A stretch of DNA of 64,000 nt from positions 2,912,001 through 2,976,000 of the forward strand of contig CAXXLX010000001.1 of NCBI GenBank assembly GCA_963665235.2. Direction: 5' to 3'. A program made the position numbers and the translations under genes. The notes beneath the pieces were generated by a model. That model saw only the letters and a list, made by a program, of their open reading frames with translations. It was not told where the DNA came from and did no database searches. This document shows, piece by piece, positions 3,413 through 63,130 of this stretch (position 1 is the stretch's first letter; each line of letters begins with the position of its first letter). This stretch comes from Candidatus Poribacteria bacterium. Its GTDB lineage: Bacteria > Poribacteria > WGA-4E > WGA-3G.

Positions 3413-5299
3413 ATGCCTAGTTCGTCCACCCATTTTACGATAAAATTCATTTTAATCTTAGCGATGTTGCTTCTGAATGCCGTACCCGATGTGGACGCTT
3501 TCGCCGAGGAAAACGGGACCGAACAGAATGACCTGCTATCCACTACAACGGAACCTAAATTCCTCATCAGGCAAATTCGTTTTGAAGGGAACAAATCCCT
3601 GAACCGTAAAACCTTGAGTGACACCCTCAATTTGCGAGAAGGGGAACAGTACACCCGCGCCGAAATTATCAACGGTTTTCAACGCCTCCTCGCCGAATAT
3701 CGGAGGGCAGGCTTCGTATTTGCAAAACTAACCCCCGAATCCGTTACAGTGCCAGCAAAACAGAACCATAAATTGGATAGGGCCGAACCAGAACAGGTCT
3801 CAATTCAGGTAAAAATTAACGAGGGAAAGCGGATTCGCATCGGGCAACTTACATTTAAAGGCAATCAACTTTTCTCCCAAACCGATATCCACCGTGAACT
3901 TGACTTGAAACGGGGACAGCTTTTTACTGAAACCGTGCTGCAAGAAGGTATTGACAGAATTCAGGCCTTGTATAGTCAGCAGGGGCACCCTAAAGTTGAA
4001 ATAGAACTCACCGATGTCAAGCTCTCCGCTGAGACAAGCACAATAGATTTTCAATTGCAGATTCGCGAAGGCACAGAAGTACGCCTCAGCGAAATAAAGC
4101 TCAGCGGACTCAAAAAGACTAAAACCCACGTCGTCACCCGGGAAATTCCTGTTAAAGTTGGGCAACGTTTCAATCAGCGCAAAATTGACCAGAGTTATCA
4201 CCGCTTGCGGAACTTAGGATATTTTTACCAGGTGCATCCCAATTTGCTAGAGGCTGGCGCGACAGATGACACAATTATCTTTCATGCCAAGCTCACCGAA
4301 GCGCGCACAGGCCGTTTGAGCGGAATCCTCGGGTACGCACCGCCAGCAGAGAACGTTGACTCTGTCCCGCAACTCACGGGCGTACTAGAGTTACGGGAGG
4401 AAAATCTCATGGGAACGGGCCGCGCAGTCAACATCTATTGGAAATCCGGTTTGCTTAAAACGTTGCGTCTCGGTTACAAAGAGCCGTGGGTATTCGGCAA
4501 ACCTGTAACGCTTGGGGTGGGATATAGTCAACGCAAACAGCGGAACCCGTTTACTGCGGCTGAATCTGAAGAAAAATCGGCAAACGTCAGTCTGGCAACA
4601 GATTTCGGTAGAAGTTTGGCAGCTGAAGTGATGCTCGGTTATAAACAGATTCGGTTTGCTGGTATTCTTTCACCGTTATTGCTGACAACCTCGCTAGATA
4701 CCCAATTTCCTAATGTCAATACACAGACTGAGCAAACCGCTGCACCGGTGGAACGCGGCACAAAATATAGCCTCACGCTTCGCTTCACCCGGGATACACG
4801 CGATTATTTTCTCAATCCAACCCACGGCAGACGCGATAGTATTGCCGTTGAGGTGTCACGGAGCGATTTTAAACTCCGAAAGGTTTGGCTTGACCTCCAG
4901 CAGTATTTTCCGACATGGAAAAATCAGACCATCGCTATTGAACTTCACGGCGCAGCCGCATGGGGCGTTAACATTCCACCGACGGAGCTGTTCTATTTAG
5001 GCGGAGCTAACACGCTCCGAGGATATGATGAGGATTGGTTTTCCGGACCGCGCCGCGCCTATGCCAATTTTGAATATAGACTCCTTATAGGCAGGCAGTC
5101 CCAACTATTCACCTTCGTCGATTTGGGCGCGGTTACACTAAAAGAGCAGCCTGCTGTTTTTGATAAACTACGCGTCGGTTACGGATTTGGCGTACGGCTT
5201 GAATCCAGGGGCGGAATCCTACAGTTAGATTACGGGCTCGCCGCTGGCGACTCCGCACTCCGTGGTAAAATTCACGTGCAACTCGGCGCAGCATTTTAA
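3413..5299 (+). CDS. Omp85 (BamA/TamA) family outer-membrane protein with POTRA domains
   Basis: Signal peptide, about three POTRA repeats (IRFEGN, LTFKGN, IKLSG), LGG.NTLRGY motif and terminal Phe. Confidence 0.85.
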   Translation: MPSSSTHFTIKFILILAMLLLNAVPDVDAFAEENGTEQNDLLSTTTEPKFLIRQIRFEGNKSLNRKTLSDTLNLREGEQYTRAEIINGFQRLLAEYRRAGFVFAKLTPESVTVPAKQNHKLDRAEPEQVSIQVKINEGKRIRIGQLTFKGNQLFSQTDIHRELDLKRGQLFTETVLQEGIDRIQALYSQQGHPKVEIELTDVKLSAETSTIDFQLQIREGTEVRLSEIKLSGLKKTKTHVVTREIPVKVGQRFNQRKIDQSYHRLRNLGYFYQVHPNLLEAGATDDTIIFHAKLTEARTGRLSGILGYAPPAENVDSVPQLTGVLELREENLMGTGRAVNIYWKSGLLKTLRLGYKEPWVFGKPVTLGVGYSQRKQRNPFTAAESEEKSANVSLATDFGRSLAAEVMLGYKQIRFAGILSPLLLTTSLDTQFPNVNTQTEQTAAPVERGTKYSLTLRFTRDTRDYFLNPTHGRRDSIAVEVSRSDFKLRKVWLDLQQYFPTWKNQTIAIELHGAAAWGVNIPPTELFYLGGANTLRGYDEDWFSGPRRAYANFEYRLLIGRQSQLFTFVDLGAVTLKEQPAVFDKLRVGYGFGVRLESRGGILQLDYGLAAGDSALRGKIHVQLGAAF

Positions 5300-5355
5300 A
5301 AACCAAAAACACCGCGATATTTTTTTTGAAGAAAAATCAAACCGTTCGCAACTAA

Positions 5356-5535
5356 TACCATTTCTAATTGAAAATGTCTCTTTGTAGTAGCATAAACTTC
5401 CAGTTTGTGCGTTTTATCGTAGCATAAACTTCCAGTTTGTGCGTTTTATCGTAGCATAAACTTCCAGTTTGGGTCTTCCGTTCTCCGTTTCATTTCTAAC
5501 AACCGGTAATGATAGAATAATTAATAAAAATGGTA
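5356..5535. mobile_element. MITE copy 1 with TACCATTT/AAATGGTA TIRs, TAA TSD and 3 internal REP-like units
   Basis: The ends are essentially identical to those of 24026-24604. TAA is duplicated at 5353-5355 and 5536-5538. GTAGCATAAACTTCCAGTTTG occurs at 5387, 5419 and 5451. Confidence 0.8.
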
Positions 5536-5667
5536 TAATATAACAGAAAACCAAAACATTTTTGGCAGACAAGCGGTGCGTTTTGCAACTCATCTGATTA
5601 GCCACCGCTATCGAAAGTGTGACATTTCATTTTTTTTGAAATCGTCCAAGGCGATTGTCCAGTGCGG

Positions 5668-5968
5668 ACAAACATAGACGGGGTGTGTGTGCAGACACAT
5701 TCAGCCCCGAAACCCCAATGTTACACTTTGTGTCAAAAGTGTAACTTATGCACCGGAGCAGCCCCAAAAAGTCCGAGGCAGAACGATAAAAAAGTAGGCA
5801 GGACACACAACCGAAATCGGCGGTTGAAATGACACACTTCGTTTTTTTTGTGTTGCGAAAAAGAGAGGGCAAAAACGCTACAAACATAGACGGGGCGTGC
5901 ATTCATGCACATTCAACACCGAAACCCCAATGTTACACTTTGTGTCAAAAGTGTAACTTATGCACCGG
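5668..5968. repeat. Two ~89-bp direct repeats (5668-5756 and 5880-5968) with an internal palindrome
   Basis: Both share ACAAACATAGACGGGG...CCGAAACCCCAATGTTACACTTTGTGTCAAAAGTGTAACTTATGCACCGG. Confidence 0.8.
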
Positions 5969-5972
5969 TTTT

Positions 5973-6012
5973 GTACAAAAACTTTACACACGGGTGTGTA
6001 AAGTTTTTGTAC
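5973..6012. repeat. Perfect 19-bp inverted repeat with 2-nt loop
   Basis: GTACAAAAACTTTACACAC-GG-GTGTGTAAAGTTTTTGTAC. Confidence 0.9.
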
Positions 6013-6014
6013 TA

Positions 6015-6944
6015 ACGTGAGTTTGGAAAAAATTTTCCCTTAGTATTTCGGCAACCAGCTCGCTCCTTAGGAACGATATCTTTATAGAAGAAGCGCGTTA
6101 GTCCGGACTAGAAGCAGAGGCACACGCCCCAAATCTTAGTCCCATCGGGACGATATCTTTATAGAAGAGGGCGTTTCCGGACTAAATCTTAGTCCCATCG
6201 GGACGCTATCTTTATAGAAGCAGAGGCACACGCCCCAAATCTTAGTCCCATCGGGACGATATCTTTATAGAAGAAGGCGTTTCCGGACTAAATCTTAGTC
6301 CCATCGGGACGCTATATTTATAGAAGCAGAGGCGCACGCCCCAAATCTTAGTCCCATCGGGACGATATCTTTATAGAAGAGGGCGTTTCCGGACTAAATC
6401 TTAGTCCCATCGGGACGATATCTTTATAGAAGAAGAGGGCGTTTCCGGACTAAATCTTAGTCCCATCGGGACGATATCTTTATAGAAGAGGGCGTTTCCG
6501 GACTAAATCTTAGTCCCATCGGGACGCTATATTTATAGAAGCAGAGGCGCACGCCCCAAATCTTAGTCCCATCGGGACGATATCTTTATAGAAGAGGGCG
6601 TTTCCGGACTAAATCTTAGTCCCATCGGGACGATATCTTTATAGAAGCAGGGCGAGCCCCAAATCTTAGTCCCATCGGGACGATATCTTTATAGAAGAGG
6701 GCGTTTCCGGACTAAATCTTAGTCCCATCGGGACGATATCTTTATAGAAGAGGGCGTTTCCGGACTAAATCTTAGTCCCATCGGGACGATATCTTTATAG
6801 AAGCAGAGGCGCACGCCCCAAATCTTAGTCCCATCGGGACGATATCTTTATAGAAGAAGGCGTTTCCGGACTAAATCTTAGTCCCATCGGGACGATATCT
6901 TTATAGGGGTTAGTGCAAACCCACATTTATTATCAAACTCACGT
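6015..6944. mobile_element. MITE with ACGTGAGTTTG/CAAACTCACGT TIRs and near-perfect 7-bp TSD enclosing the 53-bp-period array
   Basis: TIRs at 6015-6025 and 6934-6944. Flanks are TGTACTA (6008-6014) and TGCACTA (6945-6951). The ends resemble IS982-family ends as recalled, not verified. Confidence 0.7.
6131..6906 (+). repeat. Tandem array of 15 37-bp hairpin repeats separated by two recurring ~16-bp spacer types (CRISPR-like appearance, REP-like)
   Basis: Repeat AAATCTTAGTCCCATCGGGACGATATCTTTATAGAAG (last copy truncated). Spacer A is AGGGCGTTTCCGGACT and spacer B is CAGAGGC(A/G)CACGCCCC. A degenerate copy lies at 6061-6090. Confidence 0.92.
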
Positions 6945-6983
6945 TGCACTATGATAAATAGAAGGGTGGATTTCGCGCGTGTT

Positions 6984-7028
6984 GTCTGAATCTCGGATTA
7001 TCACGGATTACGCGGATTACGCGGATTT
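6984..7028 (+). repeat. Short interspersed repeat GTCTGAATCNCGGATTATCACNGATT with CGCGGATTA microrepeats; second copy at ~18283-18310
   Basis: Direct sequence match between the two loci. Confidence 0.6.
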
Positions 7029-7252
7029 TAAGGTGTGTATGCGTTAAGGTTTTGTGATTAAGGGATGTTGTGCTTTTTTTGTCAGAATGCCCGTCGCATT
7101 TGGGCGAGGATGCCGCAAAGTGCGGTGGACACAGCGGACACAGCGGACGCGGAAAAAAGAGGTTTGTTGCTAACATCTACGCATTTTTTGCTGAATCAGG
7201 GAAGGTGGGGAGGCCGGGGCGGAGGCGGAAAGAAGCGGGGTTTGGGTAAAAT

Positions 7253-7333
7253 CTATAACCATATCGCCCCGCTGGGGCTATTTTGTGTTTTGTTTGGGTT
7301 TTCTATAAAGATACCGCCCCGCTGGGGCTAAGA
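7253..7333 (-). repeat. Two inverted-orientation relatives of the array repeat
   Basis: The reverse complement TCTTAGCCCCAGCGGGGCGGTATCTTTATAGAA compares with the array unit TCTTAGTCCCATCGGGACGATATCTTTATAGAA. Confidence 0.8.
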
Positions 7334-7364
7334 GCCGACTGTTCCCCTCAAGTTACGTTAGGAG

Positions 7365-7460
7365 GTCGCGTGCGAAGCAGGTTTCTACATAAGATGAATG
7401 TCGGGATTCTAGACAGGTCGAGGGGTGCCAGTCGCGTGCGAAGCAGGCTTCTACATAAGA
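7365..7460 (+). repeat. 30-bp direct repeat pair GTCGCGTGCGAAGCAGG(T/C)TTCTACATAAGA
   Basis: Copies at ~7365 and ~7431. Confidence 0.7.
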
Positions 7461-7499
7461 CATCGGACTGTTTGTAAAAAAACTTTACACACCCTCCGC

Positions 7500-7529
7500 T
7501 TGAATTTTTTCAAGAGAATGTGTTATAAT
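7500..7529 (+). promoter_or_regulatory. Putative sigma70 promoter
   Basis: TTGAAT-18 nt-TATAAT upstream of the cyclase-family gene. Confidence 0.5.
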
Positions 7530-7580
7530 ATCTATTAAGTTTTACTAATCACGAAATGCTTGTCGGAAGGAGGATATAAA

Positions 7581-8261
7581 ATGCGCCTTGACTTTCAAGA
7601 AGTACTCGATCTGTCCTATGTCGTTGATGAAAAGAGCCCGTGTGAACTACCAATCGATCCGGCCAACATTTATGCACAGGCGACGTTGGAGGAGGATGGC
7701 TACTTTGAAAGCCGTGTCGATATGTCCGGACACTACTCCACACACATGGATGCCCCCTGTTTAATGTACCCCGATGGTGCAACTATCGCTGAAATTCCGA
7801 AGGAAAAACTGACCGGGCATGCAGTCTTGATGGACTTTTCTGCAATTAAAAAACCGAACGACGCAGTGACCGCGGAGGATGTGACAGCCTGGATAGATGA
7901 AAATGGAGAAATACCTGAGGATAGCATCGTTTTTATGCGGACTGGAATGGATAGGTTCGTCTATCAGGACAACTTCAACCGGGAATGGATTGGGTTTAGC
8001 GAAGATGCGGCGGAGCTGCTTGTCAAAAAAGGTATAAAGGTTATCGGAACAGATGCGTGTAGTATTGACGCAGTGGAAGGACATCCGCCATTGCACGATG
8101 GGCTTCCGCCAGCACATCTCGTCTTCCTTGGGGCGGGCATCCCGCACGTTGAAGACCTGTGCAATTTGAGTCTACTCCCGACGCATTTCTACGTGGTAAT
8201 TGCGCCGCTAAAATTGGCGCGTAGCTCTGGTGCCCCCACGCGTGTCTTAGCGTTTGTATGA
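7581..8261 (+). CDS. Cyclase family protein (kynurenine formamidase-like)
   Basis: HYSTHMDAP, IGTDACSID and GAPTRVLA motifs. AGGAGG lies before ATG 7581. Confidence 0.85.
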   Translation: MRLDFQEVLDLSYVVDEKSPCELPIDPANIYAQATLEEDGYFESRVDMSGHYSTHMDAPCLMYPDGATIAEIPKEKLTGHAVLMDFSAIKKPNDAVTAEDVTAWIDENGEIPEDSIVFMRTGMDRFVYQDNFNREWIGFSEDAAELLVKKGIKVIGTDACSIDAVEGHPPLHDGLPPAHLVFLGAGIPHVEDLCNLSLLPTHFYVVIAPLKLARSSGAPTRVLAFV

Positions 8262-13501: not shown

Positions 13502-14903
13502 ACCTAAGTTGCCACATAGTAGCATAATCTTCATGAAGATTAAGAAATTAATTCGGTAATTTCTGTTTTTATGTTATCCTATTGTCCCAGGAGGTATTGT
13601 CTTATGTCAAAACGCCATGAACTTGAACTCAGTAAAGATGAACGCCAAAGACTGATTGAACTCCGCGATACAGGGGAACCCGCTTATCTTCGGGAACGTG
13701 CGGCTGCCCTGCTAAAGATAGCCGCGGGAACTTCTCCACACAAAGTCGCCCTCAAAGGGCTGCTAAAGAAGCGAGATCCGGACACTGTTTATCCAATTCG
13801 GCCTGGCTTCGCCGATACCAAGAAGAGGGCATTCAAGGATTGTTTCATAGACCGGGCCGTGGCCGCAAACCCGCGTTCGCCCCCAAATCCCCCGAAGAAG
13901 CAGAAACCGAGGCGTTGACGGCTATAGGACAAGACCCGGGACAAGTCAAGGCACATCAAACGCGCTGGACGCTTCGCACGGTTGGCGAGGTTGTGCCGTG
14001 GCTTGCTAATATCTCTGTGCCGGGTATCCATCAAATCTTCTCACGCCTGGGCATCAGCTATAAGCGTGCTAGACTGTATTTGCAGAGTCCGGATACAGAC
14101 TATGCCAAGAAAATCGAACGGATACAGCAAGTTTTAGAAGAGACCCATCAAAACCCACAGAACACGGCTGTGCTTTATCAAGATGAGTTCTCATTTTACC
14201 GAAACCCCACTATAGCAAAAGACTGGGCACAGACAGGGACAAAAACGCCATTAGCCCATCAGAGTTATCAATCGGATAAAACTATTTATGGTATCGGTGC
14301 TATGAACCCCCATACAGGAGACGTTGTTTATCAGCAAGTGCCAAGCTGCACAGTTGTAGCCCTCCATACATTTTATACCGAGATTTGCCAACGCTATCCC
14401 GACAAGCAACGGATTTATCTTATCCAAGATAATCGGGCGATACATTTTCACGCCAATTTGATGGAGGCACTGCTGCCGCAATCGGTCTCCTTTGTGAAAC
14501 CGACCCCGCCGAATTGGACCGGAAAACTTTCCGAGAAAATCGGTGAACTGACAAAACTCCCGATTGAAATAGTGCAGCTGCCGACTTATGCGCCGTGGAC
14601 AAATCCGATTGAGAAGTTATGGCGATGGGTGCGGCAATCGGTTCTGCATATCCATCGCCTCTGCGATGAGTGGGAGACCCTCAAAGACAAGGTGCTTGAC
14701 TTTATGACACAGTTTAGAGGCGGCTCACAAGCATTGCTACGCTATGTCGGATTATTACCGAATTAATAAATTAATCTTCATCCAGATTGTGCATATTTGT
14801 GTGCGAATTGGAAGTGAACTGGACAAATATTAGCTAATTATCAGCATATTTTCATTAAAGACGGTGTTTCCAGGTCTAAAAACTTATAAGTAGCAACTTG
14901 GGT
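13502..14903. mobile_element. Composite insertion: outer MITE (ACCTAAGTTGC/GCAACTTGGGT TIRs, 7-bp TSD TACCATA) containing an IS630-family element
   Basis: TSD at 13495-13501 and 14904-14910. Inner imperfect 22-bp TIRs at 13522-13543 and 14771-14792. Confidence 0.8.
13604..14766 (+). pseudogene. IS630-family transposase, frameshifted near 13793-13800
   Basis: HTH N-terminus and a DDE_3-type core (YQDE, QDN, LPTYAPWTNPIEKLW). DTVY and AWLRRYQEEG are separated by 8 out-of-frame bases (CCAATTCG). Confidence 0.85.
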
Positions 14904-24025: not shown

Positions 24026-24604
24026 TACCATTTCTAATTGAAAATGTCTCTTTGTTGTAGCATAAACTTCCAGTTTGTGCTCTTTGTTGTAGCATAAACT
24101 TCCAGTTTGTGCTCTTTGTTGTAGCATAAACTTCCAGTTTGTGCTCTTTGTTGTAGCATAAACTTCCAGTTTGTGTGCTTTGTTGTAGCATAAACTTCCA
24201 GTTTGTGCTCTTTGTTGTAGCATAAACTTCCAGTTTGTGTGCTTTGTTGTAGCATAAACTTCCAGTTTGTGTGCTTTGTTGTAGCATAAACTTCCAGTTT
24301 GTGTGCTTTAGTAGCATAAACTTCCAGTTTGTGCTCTTTGTGTAGCATAAACTTCCAGTTTGTGTGCTTTGTTGTAGCATAAACTTCCAGTTTGTGTAGC
24401 TTTATTGTAGCATAAACTTCCAGTTTTGCTTTCTTGTGCTTTCCAGTTTGTGCTTTCTTGTAGCATAAACTTCCAGTTTGTGCTTTATTGTAGCATAAAC
24501 TTCCAGTTTGTGCTTTCTTGTAGCATAAACTTTTAGTTTGGGTCTTCCGTTCTCCGTTTCATTTCTAACAACCGGTAATGATAGAATAATTAATAAAAAT
24601 GGTA
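24026..24604. mobile_element. MITE copy 2 with TACCATTT/AAATGGTA TIRs, TTA TSD and 15 full plus 1 partial REP-like units
   Basis: TTA at 24023-24025 and 24605-24607. GTAGCATAAACTTCCAGTTTGTG recurs with a 30-33 bp period from 24057 to 24540. Confidence 0.85.
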
Positions 24605-48704: not shown

Positions 48705-49173
48705 ATGAATGAGAATCAAAACATTATACTTGAGACGATGAAACAGGGTTTTGAGGCTATTAACAAAAGACTCAATAACCTTGAGAACCGTTTCGATAAC
48801 CTCGAGAGCCGCCATGATAAACTTGAATTCCGCCTCGATGCCCATGAGGAACACTTCAAAAACATTGATGCGCGTTTCGACAAAGTTGACGAGCGTTTCG
48901 ACAAAGTTGACGACGCGTTTCGAGAAACTTGAAGAGGATATCGATGCGCGTTTCGACAAAGTTGACGAACGTTTCGAGAAACTTGAAGAGGATATCGATG
49001 CGCGTTTCGACAAAGTTAACGACCGTTTCGAGAAATTCCACGAGCTCTTAAGGGAACTCACAGTGAGCCTAGCAAAAACGAACACTGAAGTGGAGTGGAT
49101 AAAAAGAATCGGGTTAGGGATTGGTGGGTCTATACTCATCTACATCGTAAAACAGATTTTCTTTGGCAGTTAG
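48705..49173 (+). CDS. Coiled-coil RFDKVDE repeat protein with C-terminal TM, +1 frameshift near 48914
   Basis: One repeat reads GACGACGCGTTTC where the others read GACGAGCGTTTC. Joining the frames gives a single heptad-repeat protein. Confidence 0.7.
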
Positions 49174-62617: not shown

Positions 62618-63130
62618 ATGAAAATTTTATTGATAGTTCTTATCTTAATCTGTGCTACACCGGTGTTAGCACAAATCACGCCAGAGGAATTTCGCGCTAT
62701 CCTGAAGGAGGAAATAACTGCCTCTGAAAATCGTATGCGTGCAGAGTTTCAAGCTATTGTCAAAGAAACGGCTGCCGAATCTGAAAATCGTATGCGTGCA
62801 GAGTTTCAAGCTATTGTCAAAGAAACAGCTGCCGAATTAGAAAAGGATATGCGCGAATACGTTAAATTGAATTTTGAGAAACTCGAGATACAAATGGTAG
62901 AGTTTGATAAGCGTTTAGGCGTGTTCGACAAACGTTTAGACGATTTAAGTAAATCGGTCGGTTTCATATCTGTCATTGTGCAGGTACTGTTTGCGTTCGT
63001 GGCACTTGCTATCGGTCTACCGCAAATCGTAAATACCTTCAGAAACCGAAATTATCGTACGCAACAGGACAGTTCACCGAAAGACCCGTCACCGAACAGC
63101 CCAAAAGCTGAAGAAACACTGGAGACATAA
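62618..63130 (+). CDS. Secreted/membrane coiled-coil protein with a 19-aa tandem duplication
   Basis: Signal peptide, 57-bp repeat at 62723-62836 (SENRMRAEFQAIVKETAAE twice) and C-terminal TM. Confidence 0.7.
   Translation: MKILLIVLILICATPVLAQITPEEFRAILKEEITASENRMRAEFQAIVKETAAESENRMRAEFQAIVKETAAELEKDMREYVKLNFEKLEIQMVEFDKRLGVFDKRLDDLSKSVGFISVIVQVLFAFVALAIGLPQIVNTFRNRNYRTQQDSSPKDPSPNSPKAEETLET

What the first reader, a model, noticed from the sequence alone, without database searches (positions are those of the whole stretch)
5300..7500. 2.2 kb non-coding zone of nested transposon shells carrying hairpin-repeat cargo
Seen: there is no credible gene between the Omp85 gene and the cyclase gene. 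The region holds a MITE (5356-5535), an 89-bp duplication, a 19-bp palindrome, outer inverted ends (5992-7494), an inner TIR/TSD element (6015-6944) and several REP-like families. Inference: two unrelated TIR/TSD shells each carry a different tandem hairpin array, which suggests a general strategy in which MITEs spread amplifiable REP arrays.
Basis: partly seen in the sequence, partly recalled or inferred. Interest (0 to 1): 0.7.

Follow-up and report, generated by a model that had tools for sequence, protein, structure and literature searches.

The report
Stacked mini-transposons carrying hairpin repeats
This gene-free stretch is a pile of four nested, gene-less mini-transposons whose ends match three different transposase families; they carry small DNA hairpins of the kind found beside a separate class of enzyme, and were likely stacked here because the outer type inserts just upstream of promoters, making it a rich variant of known bacterial repeat biology.

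Summary
The region, in a likely Poribacteria genome, holds four nested MITEs from three families of about 150 copies each.

A (5356-5535) has IS630-type ends and a 3-bp TWA duplication (124 of 135 pairs). B (6014-6945) has IS982-type ends. Two C shells (5314-5991, 5992-7494) have ends identical to an intact ISKra4 in the same genome. Empty sister sites show A and B inserted into C. The '19-bp palindrome' is two C ends back to back.

Hairpin cargo is almost universal in the shells (A 135/135, B 100/104), and 13 array-bearing C shells have exact 7-9 bp duplications, so shells do disperse arrays. Shells are not needed for amplification: 407 of 961 units of the 53-bp family lie in complete shells, and a relative has long arrays without these ends. 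The 53-bp core flanks subclass-1.2 Y1 transposase genes across phyla. C ends peak 15-17 bp upstream of promoters, which likely explains the pile.

MITEs with minisatellites are published (BrickBuilt). This scan had already noted family A, the C ends and subclass-1.2 hairpins on other DNA. Verdict: new variant of a known kind.

The parts
3413..5299 (+). Omp85/POTRA gene (left neighbour, not part of the element)
   Evidence: Pfam Omp85 + POTRA
5314..5991 (+). C1 shell: ISKra4-type MITE, left TIR missing, right TIR 5970-5991 lacking its last 2 nt
   Evidence: 16 complete sister copies begin with the C TIR then GCGATATTTT; right TIR matches ISKra4 end
5356..5535 (+). Family A MITE, IS630-type ends, TAA target duplication (5353-5355 / 5536-5538), inserted in C1
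   Evidence: same site empty in 5 of 16 complete C1 copies; partner IS630 in G035
5387..5471 (+). Three head-to-tail 32-bp GTAG-footed hairpin (REP-like) units inside A
   Evidence: TRF; fold z -4.34
5668..5756 (+). First copy of the 89-bp internal module of C1, with 26-bp palindrome at 5720-5745
   Evidence: the palindrome occurs 0-3 times (15 of 16 have it) in sister C1 copies
5880..5968 (+). Second copy of the 89-bp module, palindrome at 5932-5957
5973..6012 (.). 19-bp-arm palindrome = right TIR of C1 abutting left TIR of C2
5992..7494 (+). C2 shell: complete ISKra4-type MITE; no intact target duplication
   Evidence: TIR identical over 21 nt to the own-genome ISKra4 at G000:C1:327050-328506; sister copies
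6014..6945 (+). Family B MITE, IS982-type ends, 5-bp duplication GTACT/GCACT (1 mismatch), inserted just inside the C2 left TIR
   Evidence: B-less sister shells read GTACT-ATGATA; partner IS982 in G032/G035
6065..6906 (+). Array of 16 hairpin units (period ~53 bp, two alternating spacer types) inside B; core matches the repeat flanking subclass-1.2 Y1 transposase genes
   Evidence: sister B copies have 2 units in 166 bp
6994..7027 (+). 9-bp tandem repeat within a further dispersed repeat shared by many relatives
7252..7330 (+). Two more units of the 53-bp hairpin family, inverted to the main array
   Evidence: D6, I1-I16
7365..7460 (-). Two degenerate copies of a GTAG repeat resembling the REP that flanks the RAYT gene of locus L010
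   Evidence: amplified to 6 copies at the same position in sister shell C1:4228247
7500..7529 (+). Predicted sigma-70-type promoter of the cyclase gene, 5 bp from the C2 end
   Evidence: a similar promoter-like stretch precedes the gene in relatives
7560..8261 (+). Cyclase-family gene (right neighbour)
   Evidence: Pfam PF04199

Best explanation
The region is a nested pile of four gene-less transposon shells with IS630-, IS982- and ISKra4-type ends, which were likely moved in trans by those DDE transposases, carry hairpin repeats likely picked up from Y1/RAYT repeat families, and likely piled up here because ISKra4-type ends insert about 16 bp upstream of promoters. Shown: the ends, the target duplications, empty and filled sister sites, the matching full-length IS elements, the hairpin flanking Y1 genes, and the genome-wide 15-17 bp peak. 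Inferred order: (1) a C1 shell holding A lay next to the cyclase promoter. (2) A C2 shell that already held B with 2 units inserted into the C1 right TIR, 16 bp upstream of the -35 box, and the duplicated 9 bp then collapsed into the identical TIR tip. (3) The B array grew in place from 2 to 16 units, most likely by slippage or unequal recombination, independent of the shell. (4) A rearrangement removed the C1 left end and joined the pile to Omp85. Shells act as dispersal vehicles, not as the amplifier. The cargo is most likely selfish or neutral.
For: Target duplications above shuffles. The ISKra4 gene between identical TIRs in the own genome scores 217 bits vs cut-off 205. IS982 elements in G032/G035 have the same two asymmetric ends as window B. 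An IS630 in G035 has one end identical over 16 nt to the A left end. A is absent at the same TAA in 5 of 16 C1 copies and present in both orientations in the other 11. B is absent in two C2 sisters, present with 2 units in two, and expanded separately in a fifth. 78 of 298 C ends lie 15-17 bp from a TTG-type -35 hexamer, while B ends are flat (10 of 322), as described for the ISKra4 group (PMC3942029, passages). 9+2+5 = 16 bp from the junction 9-mer to TTGAAT, with uncollapsed C-in-C-TIR cases elsewhere. The Y1 gene L007 is flanked by inverted 53-bp-family units. 43 of 80 homologues have the hairpin on both sides, 0 of 80 inside the gene. One stem pair covaries: 342 T-A, 238 C-G, 8 mismatched of 588 units.
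Against: No full-length partner of A or B was found in the own genome (92.6% complete), so their current mobility is unexplained. Window C2 has no intact target duplication and sits 5 bp, not 16, from the -35 box; the collapse is inferred. Only 22 of 65 C pairs have an exact duplication. The intact ISKra4 has no duplication directly at its two TIRs. Duplications around the full-length IS982 copies are clear in only 2 of 9. No Y1 locus flanked by the 32-bp unit was found among 11 examined. Nothing shows that the Y1 enzyme acts on the hairpin. Relatives differ at both flanks, so no empty orthologous site exists for the whole pile.
Confidence: 0.75

Rival explanations
1. A coupled two-enzyme strategy: hairpin arrays depend on MITE shells to spread, and the combination is selected, for example as terminators or insulators placed at promoters.
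For: Cargo is near-universal in shells: A 135/135, B 100/104, E 40/44. B carries either of two unrelated hairpins (56 vs 42 copies). 7 of 8 B shells fetched from G033 hold another variant of the same hairpin family in a different interior (read by eye; chosen as paired ends). 20 terminator-like sites vs 2.4 expected.
Against: 407 of 961 units lie in complete shells, and arrays occur beside the Y1 genes and free in G017. Copy numbers vary from 0 to 533 among relatives. The terminator matches have only 5-bp stems and weak T tails. No expression data.
Confidence: 0.15
2. The Y1/RAYT enzymes insert and amplify hairpins after the shells land; shells are only tolerated landing sites, and arrays never move with them.
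For: Units occur in many contexts, and unit number differs between sister shells. The Y1 gene appears intact.
Against: Sister shells at different loci share the same interior, spacers and a 101-bp higher-order period, and several have their own exact duplication, so at least the founder units moved with the shell.
Confidence: 0.07
3. The pile, or the array length, is an assembly artefact.
For: No record spanned the whole stretch; the runs are short-read contigs, three of them from one study that may include the source sample.
Against: Contigs of 3 of 4 runs cross from Omp85 into C1 to 5356 with no differences. In X1, single-depth pieces tile 5534-5948. 2 of 4 runs have a contig from 7465 into the cyclase gene with no differences, though 30 letters on the shell side is one short of the tool's bridging rule. 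Array units differ from each other.
Confidence: 0.03

Closest known systems
BrickBuilt and 464/PgRS MITEs of Porphyromonas gingivalis (PMC4596501; abstract and section 7 part 1 read)
   Same: Gene-less TIR shell with leader, variable tandem array and tail; ends match full-length IS; nesting with other MITEs; the paper's MITE239 TIR begins ACGTGAGTT like family B.
   Different: Here three shell families of about 150 copies each against 10-20; cargo is hairpin/REP-type and shared between unrelated shells; nesting is two levels deep inside a promoter-targeting shell.
ISKra4 group, p-MULT 4 Mutator-like IS (PMC3942029; passages read)
   Same: Near-perfect symmetric TIRs; insertion 13-17 bp upstream of sigma-A promoters on either side; NCBIfam ISKra4 over cut-off.
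   Different: Here mostly non-autonomous shells of 0.1-1.8 kb whose ends combine in different pairs around other MITEs and repeat arrays; the passages read describe IS and transposons, not such shells.
REP/RAYT (REPtron, REPIN, BIME) and TIRtron/TIRYT systems (PMC3733652; passages and section 16 read)
   Same: GTAG-footed hairpin (32-bp unit; L010 repeat beside a RAYT over cut-off); non-GTAG inverted repeats flanking a tyrosine transposase gene and dispersed as a family.
   Different: Units here form head-to-tail arrays inside DDE-type shells; the 53-bp unit lacks the GTAG foot and does not exactly fit the TIRYT motif GGGGWSAS.
TnpA-Y1 subclass 1.2 (PMC6006769; passages and section 12 read, supplements not seen)
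   Same: L007 has the YIKNQEKHH signature, HUH and WQ motifs, 157 aa, stand-alone, one intact copy.
   Different: The paper's table lists no REP for this subclass; here a 5-bp-stem hairpin flanks 43 of 80 homologues on both sides and forms about 960 genomic units.
Pneumococcal BOX elements (PMC3184786; passage read)
   Same: Non-autonomous element with a tandem internal module, thought to be mobilised by an IS.
   Different: No REP cargo or nesting described in the passage; no sequence comparison made.

Membership tests
MITE (families A, B, C) | Terminal inverted repeats | tested here: met
   C1 copy in the window has lost its left TIR
MITE (families A, B, C) | Target-site duplication | tested here: met
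   Family level: A 124/135, B 39+17/107 (5, 6 bp), C 22/69 (7-9 bp), all above shuffles. Window copies: A exact, B 4 of 5, C2 absent
MITE (families A, B, C) | No transposase, many dispersed copies | tested here: met
MITE (families A, B, C) | Full-length IS with the same ends | tested here: met
   C in own genome; B in G032/G035; A in G035; A and B partners not found in own genome (67, 73)
MITE (families A, B, C) | Mobilisation in trans | not testable with these tools
   needs a transposition assay
ISKra4-derived element (C) | Partner transposase over the ISKra4 cut-off | tested here: met
   NF033572 217.2 vs 205
ISKra4-derived element (C) | Insertion 13-17 bp upstream of -35 | tested here: met
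   78 of 298 ends at 15-17 bp; B control 10 of 322; the window copy is at 5 bp and fits only if the duplication collapsed
IS982-derived element (B) | Partner transposase over the IS982 cut-off, same ends | tested here: met
   NF033520 244.6 and 224.8 vs 130; ends
IS630-derived element (A) | Partner transposase over the IS630 cut-off, same ends | tested here: met
   NF033545 137.8 vs 100 for the second frame of L145; only 1 of the 3 G035 copies was read
IS630-derived element (A) | 2-bp TA duplication (recalled as typical of IS630) | tested here: not met
   3-bp TWA in 121 of 135; only 3 of 135 fit the TA pattern
Canonical GTAG REP (32-bp unit) | GTAG at the foot of a hairpin | tested here: met
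   (z -4.34)
Canonical GTAG REP (32-bp unit) | Flanks a RAYT gene | tested here: inconclusive
   not found flanking any of 11 Y1 loci of the own genome; relatives not searched for this
Canonical GTAG REP (53-bp unit) | GTAG foot | tested here: not met
   5-bp stem, 3-nt loop, no GTAG
Y1-associated repeat (53-bp unit; works like a REP) | Inverted copies flank a stand-alone Y1 gene | tested here: met
Y1-associated repeat (53-bp unit; works like a REP) | Cleavage or mobilisation by that enzyme | not testable with these tools
   needs ssDNA binding and cleavage assay
CRISPR array | Unique spacers between repeats | tested here: not met
   two recurring spacer types; cas genes not searched

The most novel reading that the evidence does not exclude
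A two-chemistry relay: HUH/Y1 enzymes, including the subclass listed as having no REPs, supply hairpin units; several unrelated DDE families adopt them as the obligate core of their MITEs; and ISKra4 shells deliver the loaded, expandable cassettes to promoters, where they tune transcription and seed rearrangements across Poribacteria.
Probability: 0.2. Interest if true: 0.65.

Novelty: new variant of a known kind. Interest (0 to 1): 0.4.

Why it matters
It shows in one locus how REP-type hairpins can spread without their own enzyme, by riding in DDE transposon shells, which bears on the open question of how REPs disperse. It assigns transposase partners to three large MITE families of a likely Poribacteria genome, and it adds a case of a repeat family tied to Y1 subclass 1.2. 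Promoter targeting by the outer shell explains repeat piles and makes a clean test possible. Each ingredient has precedent, no function is shown, and complete shells cover about 2% of the genome, so the importance is moderate.

Tried and rejected
IS256 (PF00872), ISAzo13 (PF07592; the control did not ring, so uninformative) and ISL2 (PF13359) as own-genome partners: no match.

Three false partners for A were rejected. L029 is an IS4/IS701-like pseudogene with its own ends, nested in an A end; its intact homologues lack A ends. In L045 one apparent end lies inside the ORF. L065 is an IS4 with its own inverted repeats inside an A-type shell. The IS1634 inside a C shell (L015) likewise looks like a separate insertion.

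Structured RNA: no Rfam match near its gathering score. Empty orthologous site: none, because 0 of 24 relatives have Omp85 within 1.5 kb upstream of the cyclase gene. A distant C end carrying the missing duplication: none.

The idea that two C ends moved the displaced 10-kb block as one composite transposon was dropped: the block maps to separate pieces at C1:3.70-3.72 and 3.82 Mb. Look-ups of earlier findings by sequence and by one word set returned nothing.

Full report
Setting. The window is G000:C1:2912001-2976000 of a 5.31-Mb, 4-contig genome, 92.6% complete. The closest homologues of one of its genes are in records titled Candidatus Poribacteria, so the taxon is inferred. The region lies between an Omp85 gene (3413-5299) and a cyclase-family gene (7560-8261). 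It has only 63-91 aa ORFs and no Rfam match near threshold.

Observation. Every feature listed is present. Most 25-bp bins from 5300 to 7350 match 23-207 other loci of the genome; the last 150 bp match 7-10.

Family A (5356-5535). The genome has 148 left and 151 right ends. 135 pair up, 124 with a 3-bp duplication (shuffled mean 63, max 78), almost all TAA or TTA. All 135 hold 1-27 copies of a 32-bp GTAG-footed hairpin. 876 of 1222 such units lie in paired A; many others lie near a single A end or in a fourth shell, E. E ends match an own-genome IS982; 40 of 44 E pairs hold the unit and 36 have a 7-bp duplication. In relative G035 three 1149-bp elements have A-type ends. The one I read encodes a two-frame IS630 transposase. 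No close homologue is in the own genome (best 36%). The 3-bp duplication departs from the TA duplication I recall as typical of IS630.

Family B (6014-6945). There are 322 ends and 107 pairs, with exact duplications of 4, 5, 6 and 7 bp in 10, 39, 17 and 3 pairs; the shuffled maxima are 5, 4, 3 and 1. Of 104 pairs up to 1 kb, 56 hold a GTAG unit, 42 a 53-bp-family unit, 2 both and 4 neither. One-kb IS982 elements in G032 and G035 carry the same two asymmetric ends. The best own-genome match is 32%. B ends occur in 22 of 40 relatives, five of them with a single match.

Family C. There are 298 ends and 69 pairs; 22 have an exact 7-9 bp duplication. An intact 460-aa ISKra4 gene lies between identical ends at C1:327050-328506. 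Among 65 pairs under 2.5 kb, 38 hold 53-bp units, 15 hold 32-bp units, 28 a B end and 16 an A end. 32 hold an array of 4 or more units, and 13 of those have an exact duplication. The same end interior pairs with different opposite ends, with duplications in both combinations, so C ends behave like a mini composite transposon. C ends occur in 18 of 40 relatives, all in the same family. Six C shells fetched from G033 show 8-9 bp duplications in five and carry other repeats (read by eye).

Anatomy of the pile. 5314-5991 is a C shell (C1) without its left end. Of 16 complete sisters, 11 hold A at the same TAA (7 in one orientation, 4 in the other) and 5 are empty. The 89-bp duplication is its internal module. 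5992-7494 is a second C shell (C2). Two sisters lack B and read GTACT-ATGATA, two hold a 166-bp B with 2 units, and the nearest sister (C1:558-559 kb) has its own long array. So B inserted once with a 5-bp duplication, the composite spread, and arrays grew in place. The '19-bp palindrome' is the C1 right end abutting the C2 left end.

Why here. 78 of 298 C ends lie 15-17 bp from a TTG-type hexamer; B ends show no peak. This is the published specificity of the ISKra4 group (PMC3942029, passages). The window's C2 ends 5 bp from the predicted cyclase promoter. However, the last 9 nt of C1, plus its two missing C, plus those 5 bp make exactly 16. I infer that C2 inserted into the C1 tip and that the right-hand duplicate, identical to the C2 tip, collapsed. 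Uncollapsed examples exist at C1:809241 and 3712419.

The junction is also a synteny break. In 14 of 19 relatives the DNA after Omp85 maps to C1:3826347, which in this genome sits beside another C1 shell. In 16 of 24 the DNA before the cyclase maps to C1:3703 kb, beside a B end. In 800 kb sampled from G016 (304 orthologues of 596 ORFs), C ends lay at 7 of 68 broken and 2 of 262 conserved gene sides (p 0.0003). This is confounded, because both breaks and C insertions favour promoter regions, and the two sides of a pair are not independent.

The cargo. The 53-bp unit has a 5-bp stem with a 3-nt loop; one pair covaries across 588 units. The whole unit folds no better than shuffles. A stand-alone Y1 gene (L007) is flanked by inverted units, and a broken copy has a 22-unit array. 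Its YIKNQEKHH motif is that of subclass 1.2, for which PMC6006769 lists no REP (passages and section 12; supplements not seen and may bear on this). Among the 80 best of 464 homologous loci, 43 have the hairpin on both sides and 70 on at least one, with 0 in in-gene controls. A stricter motif gave 26 of 80 on both sides and 14 with a copy in the opposite orientation. The pair at 7365-7460 resembles the GTAG repeat flanking a true RAYT (L010) and is amplified six-fold in a sister shell.

Shells nearly always hold a hairpin and move with it. Amplification does not need them: 407 of 961 units are in complete shells, which is a strong enrichment over the 2% of the genome the shells cover, but a minority. 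15 of 60 arrays have no B or C end nearby, and three G017 stretches hold long arrays without A/B/C ends. Shell families I did not define may enclose some of these.

Assembly. They come from one study that may include the source sample. The C1/C2 junction and the unit count were not confirmed.

Known and new. MITEs with internal minisatellites are described (PMC4596501, abstract and section 7 part 1; BOX in PMC3184786, passage). Non-GTAG repeats flanking tyrosine transposases are described as TIRtrons (PMC3733652, section 16). Nine searches of the open library (mostly listings seen) showed no paper on REP cargo shared among IS630, IS982 and ISKra4 shells, or on these Poribacteria families; subscription journals are not covered. 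Earlier notes of this scan cover family A, the ISKra4 ends and subclass-1.2 hairpins on other DNA; the promoter lead came from them and was tested here. Verdict: real, well explained by known mechanisms acting together, a new variant of a known kind, interest 0.4.

Noticed in passing
L007 1489-1962 (G000:C1:1178425-1178895): Stand-alone Y1 transposase with the subclass-1.2 signature, flanked by inverted hairpins; the same hairpin flanks homologues in Poribacteria, Flavobacterium and others.
   Followed up: partly
L145 1502-2648 (G035): IS630-family element with a two-frame transposase whose MITEs show a 3-bp TWA duplication rather than TA.
   Followed up: partly
window 5529-5539: The A right end plus its TAA duplication reads TGGTATAAT, an extended -10-like sequence pointing out of the element; the scan found no -35 for it.
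   Followed up: no
window 13571-14766: IS630 transposase split into two ORFs, whereas the copy at G000:C1:1687110 is one 396-aa frame; other copies sit inside A and B shells.
   Followed up: no
window 6982-7032: A short repeat with 9-bp tandem units that gives 87-98% matches in many of the 30 relatives, including other families; its partner enzyme is unknown.
   Followed up: no
window 24048-24540: A 16-unit array of the 32-bp hairpin, probably another family A copy.
   Followed up: no
L015 (G000:C1:4355015-4358995): An intact-looking IS1634 gene sits at the same C1 hot spot that A occupies in the window, within a run of several C, B and A elements.
   Followed up: partly
L010 (G000:C1:830296-833625): RAYT over the NCBIfam cut-off with a long GTAG array upstream; 416 matches to its repeat genome-wide.
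   Followed up: partly
window 48871-49043 and 62723-62844: Tandem repeats of period 21/54 and 57 that look coding.
   Followed up: no
G000:C1:3826424-3827002: A C1 shell holding A lies upstream of the gene that follows Omp85 in most relatives, marking the other side of the rearrangement.
   Followed up: partly
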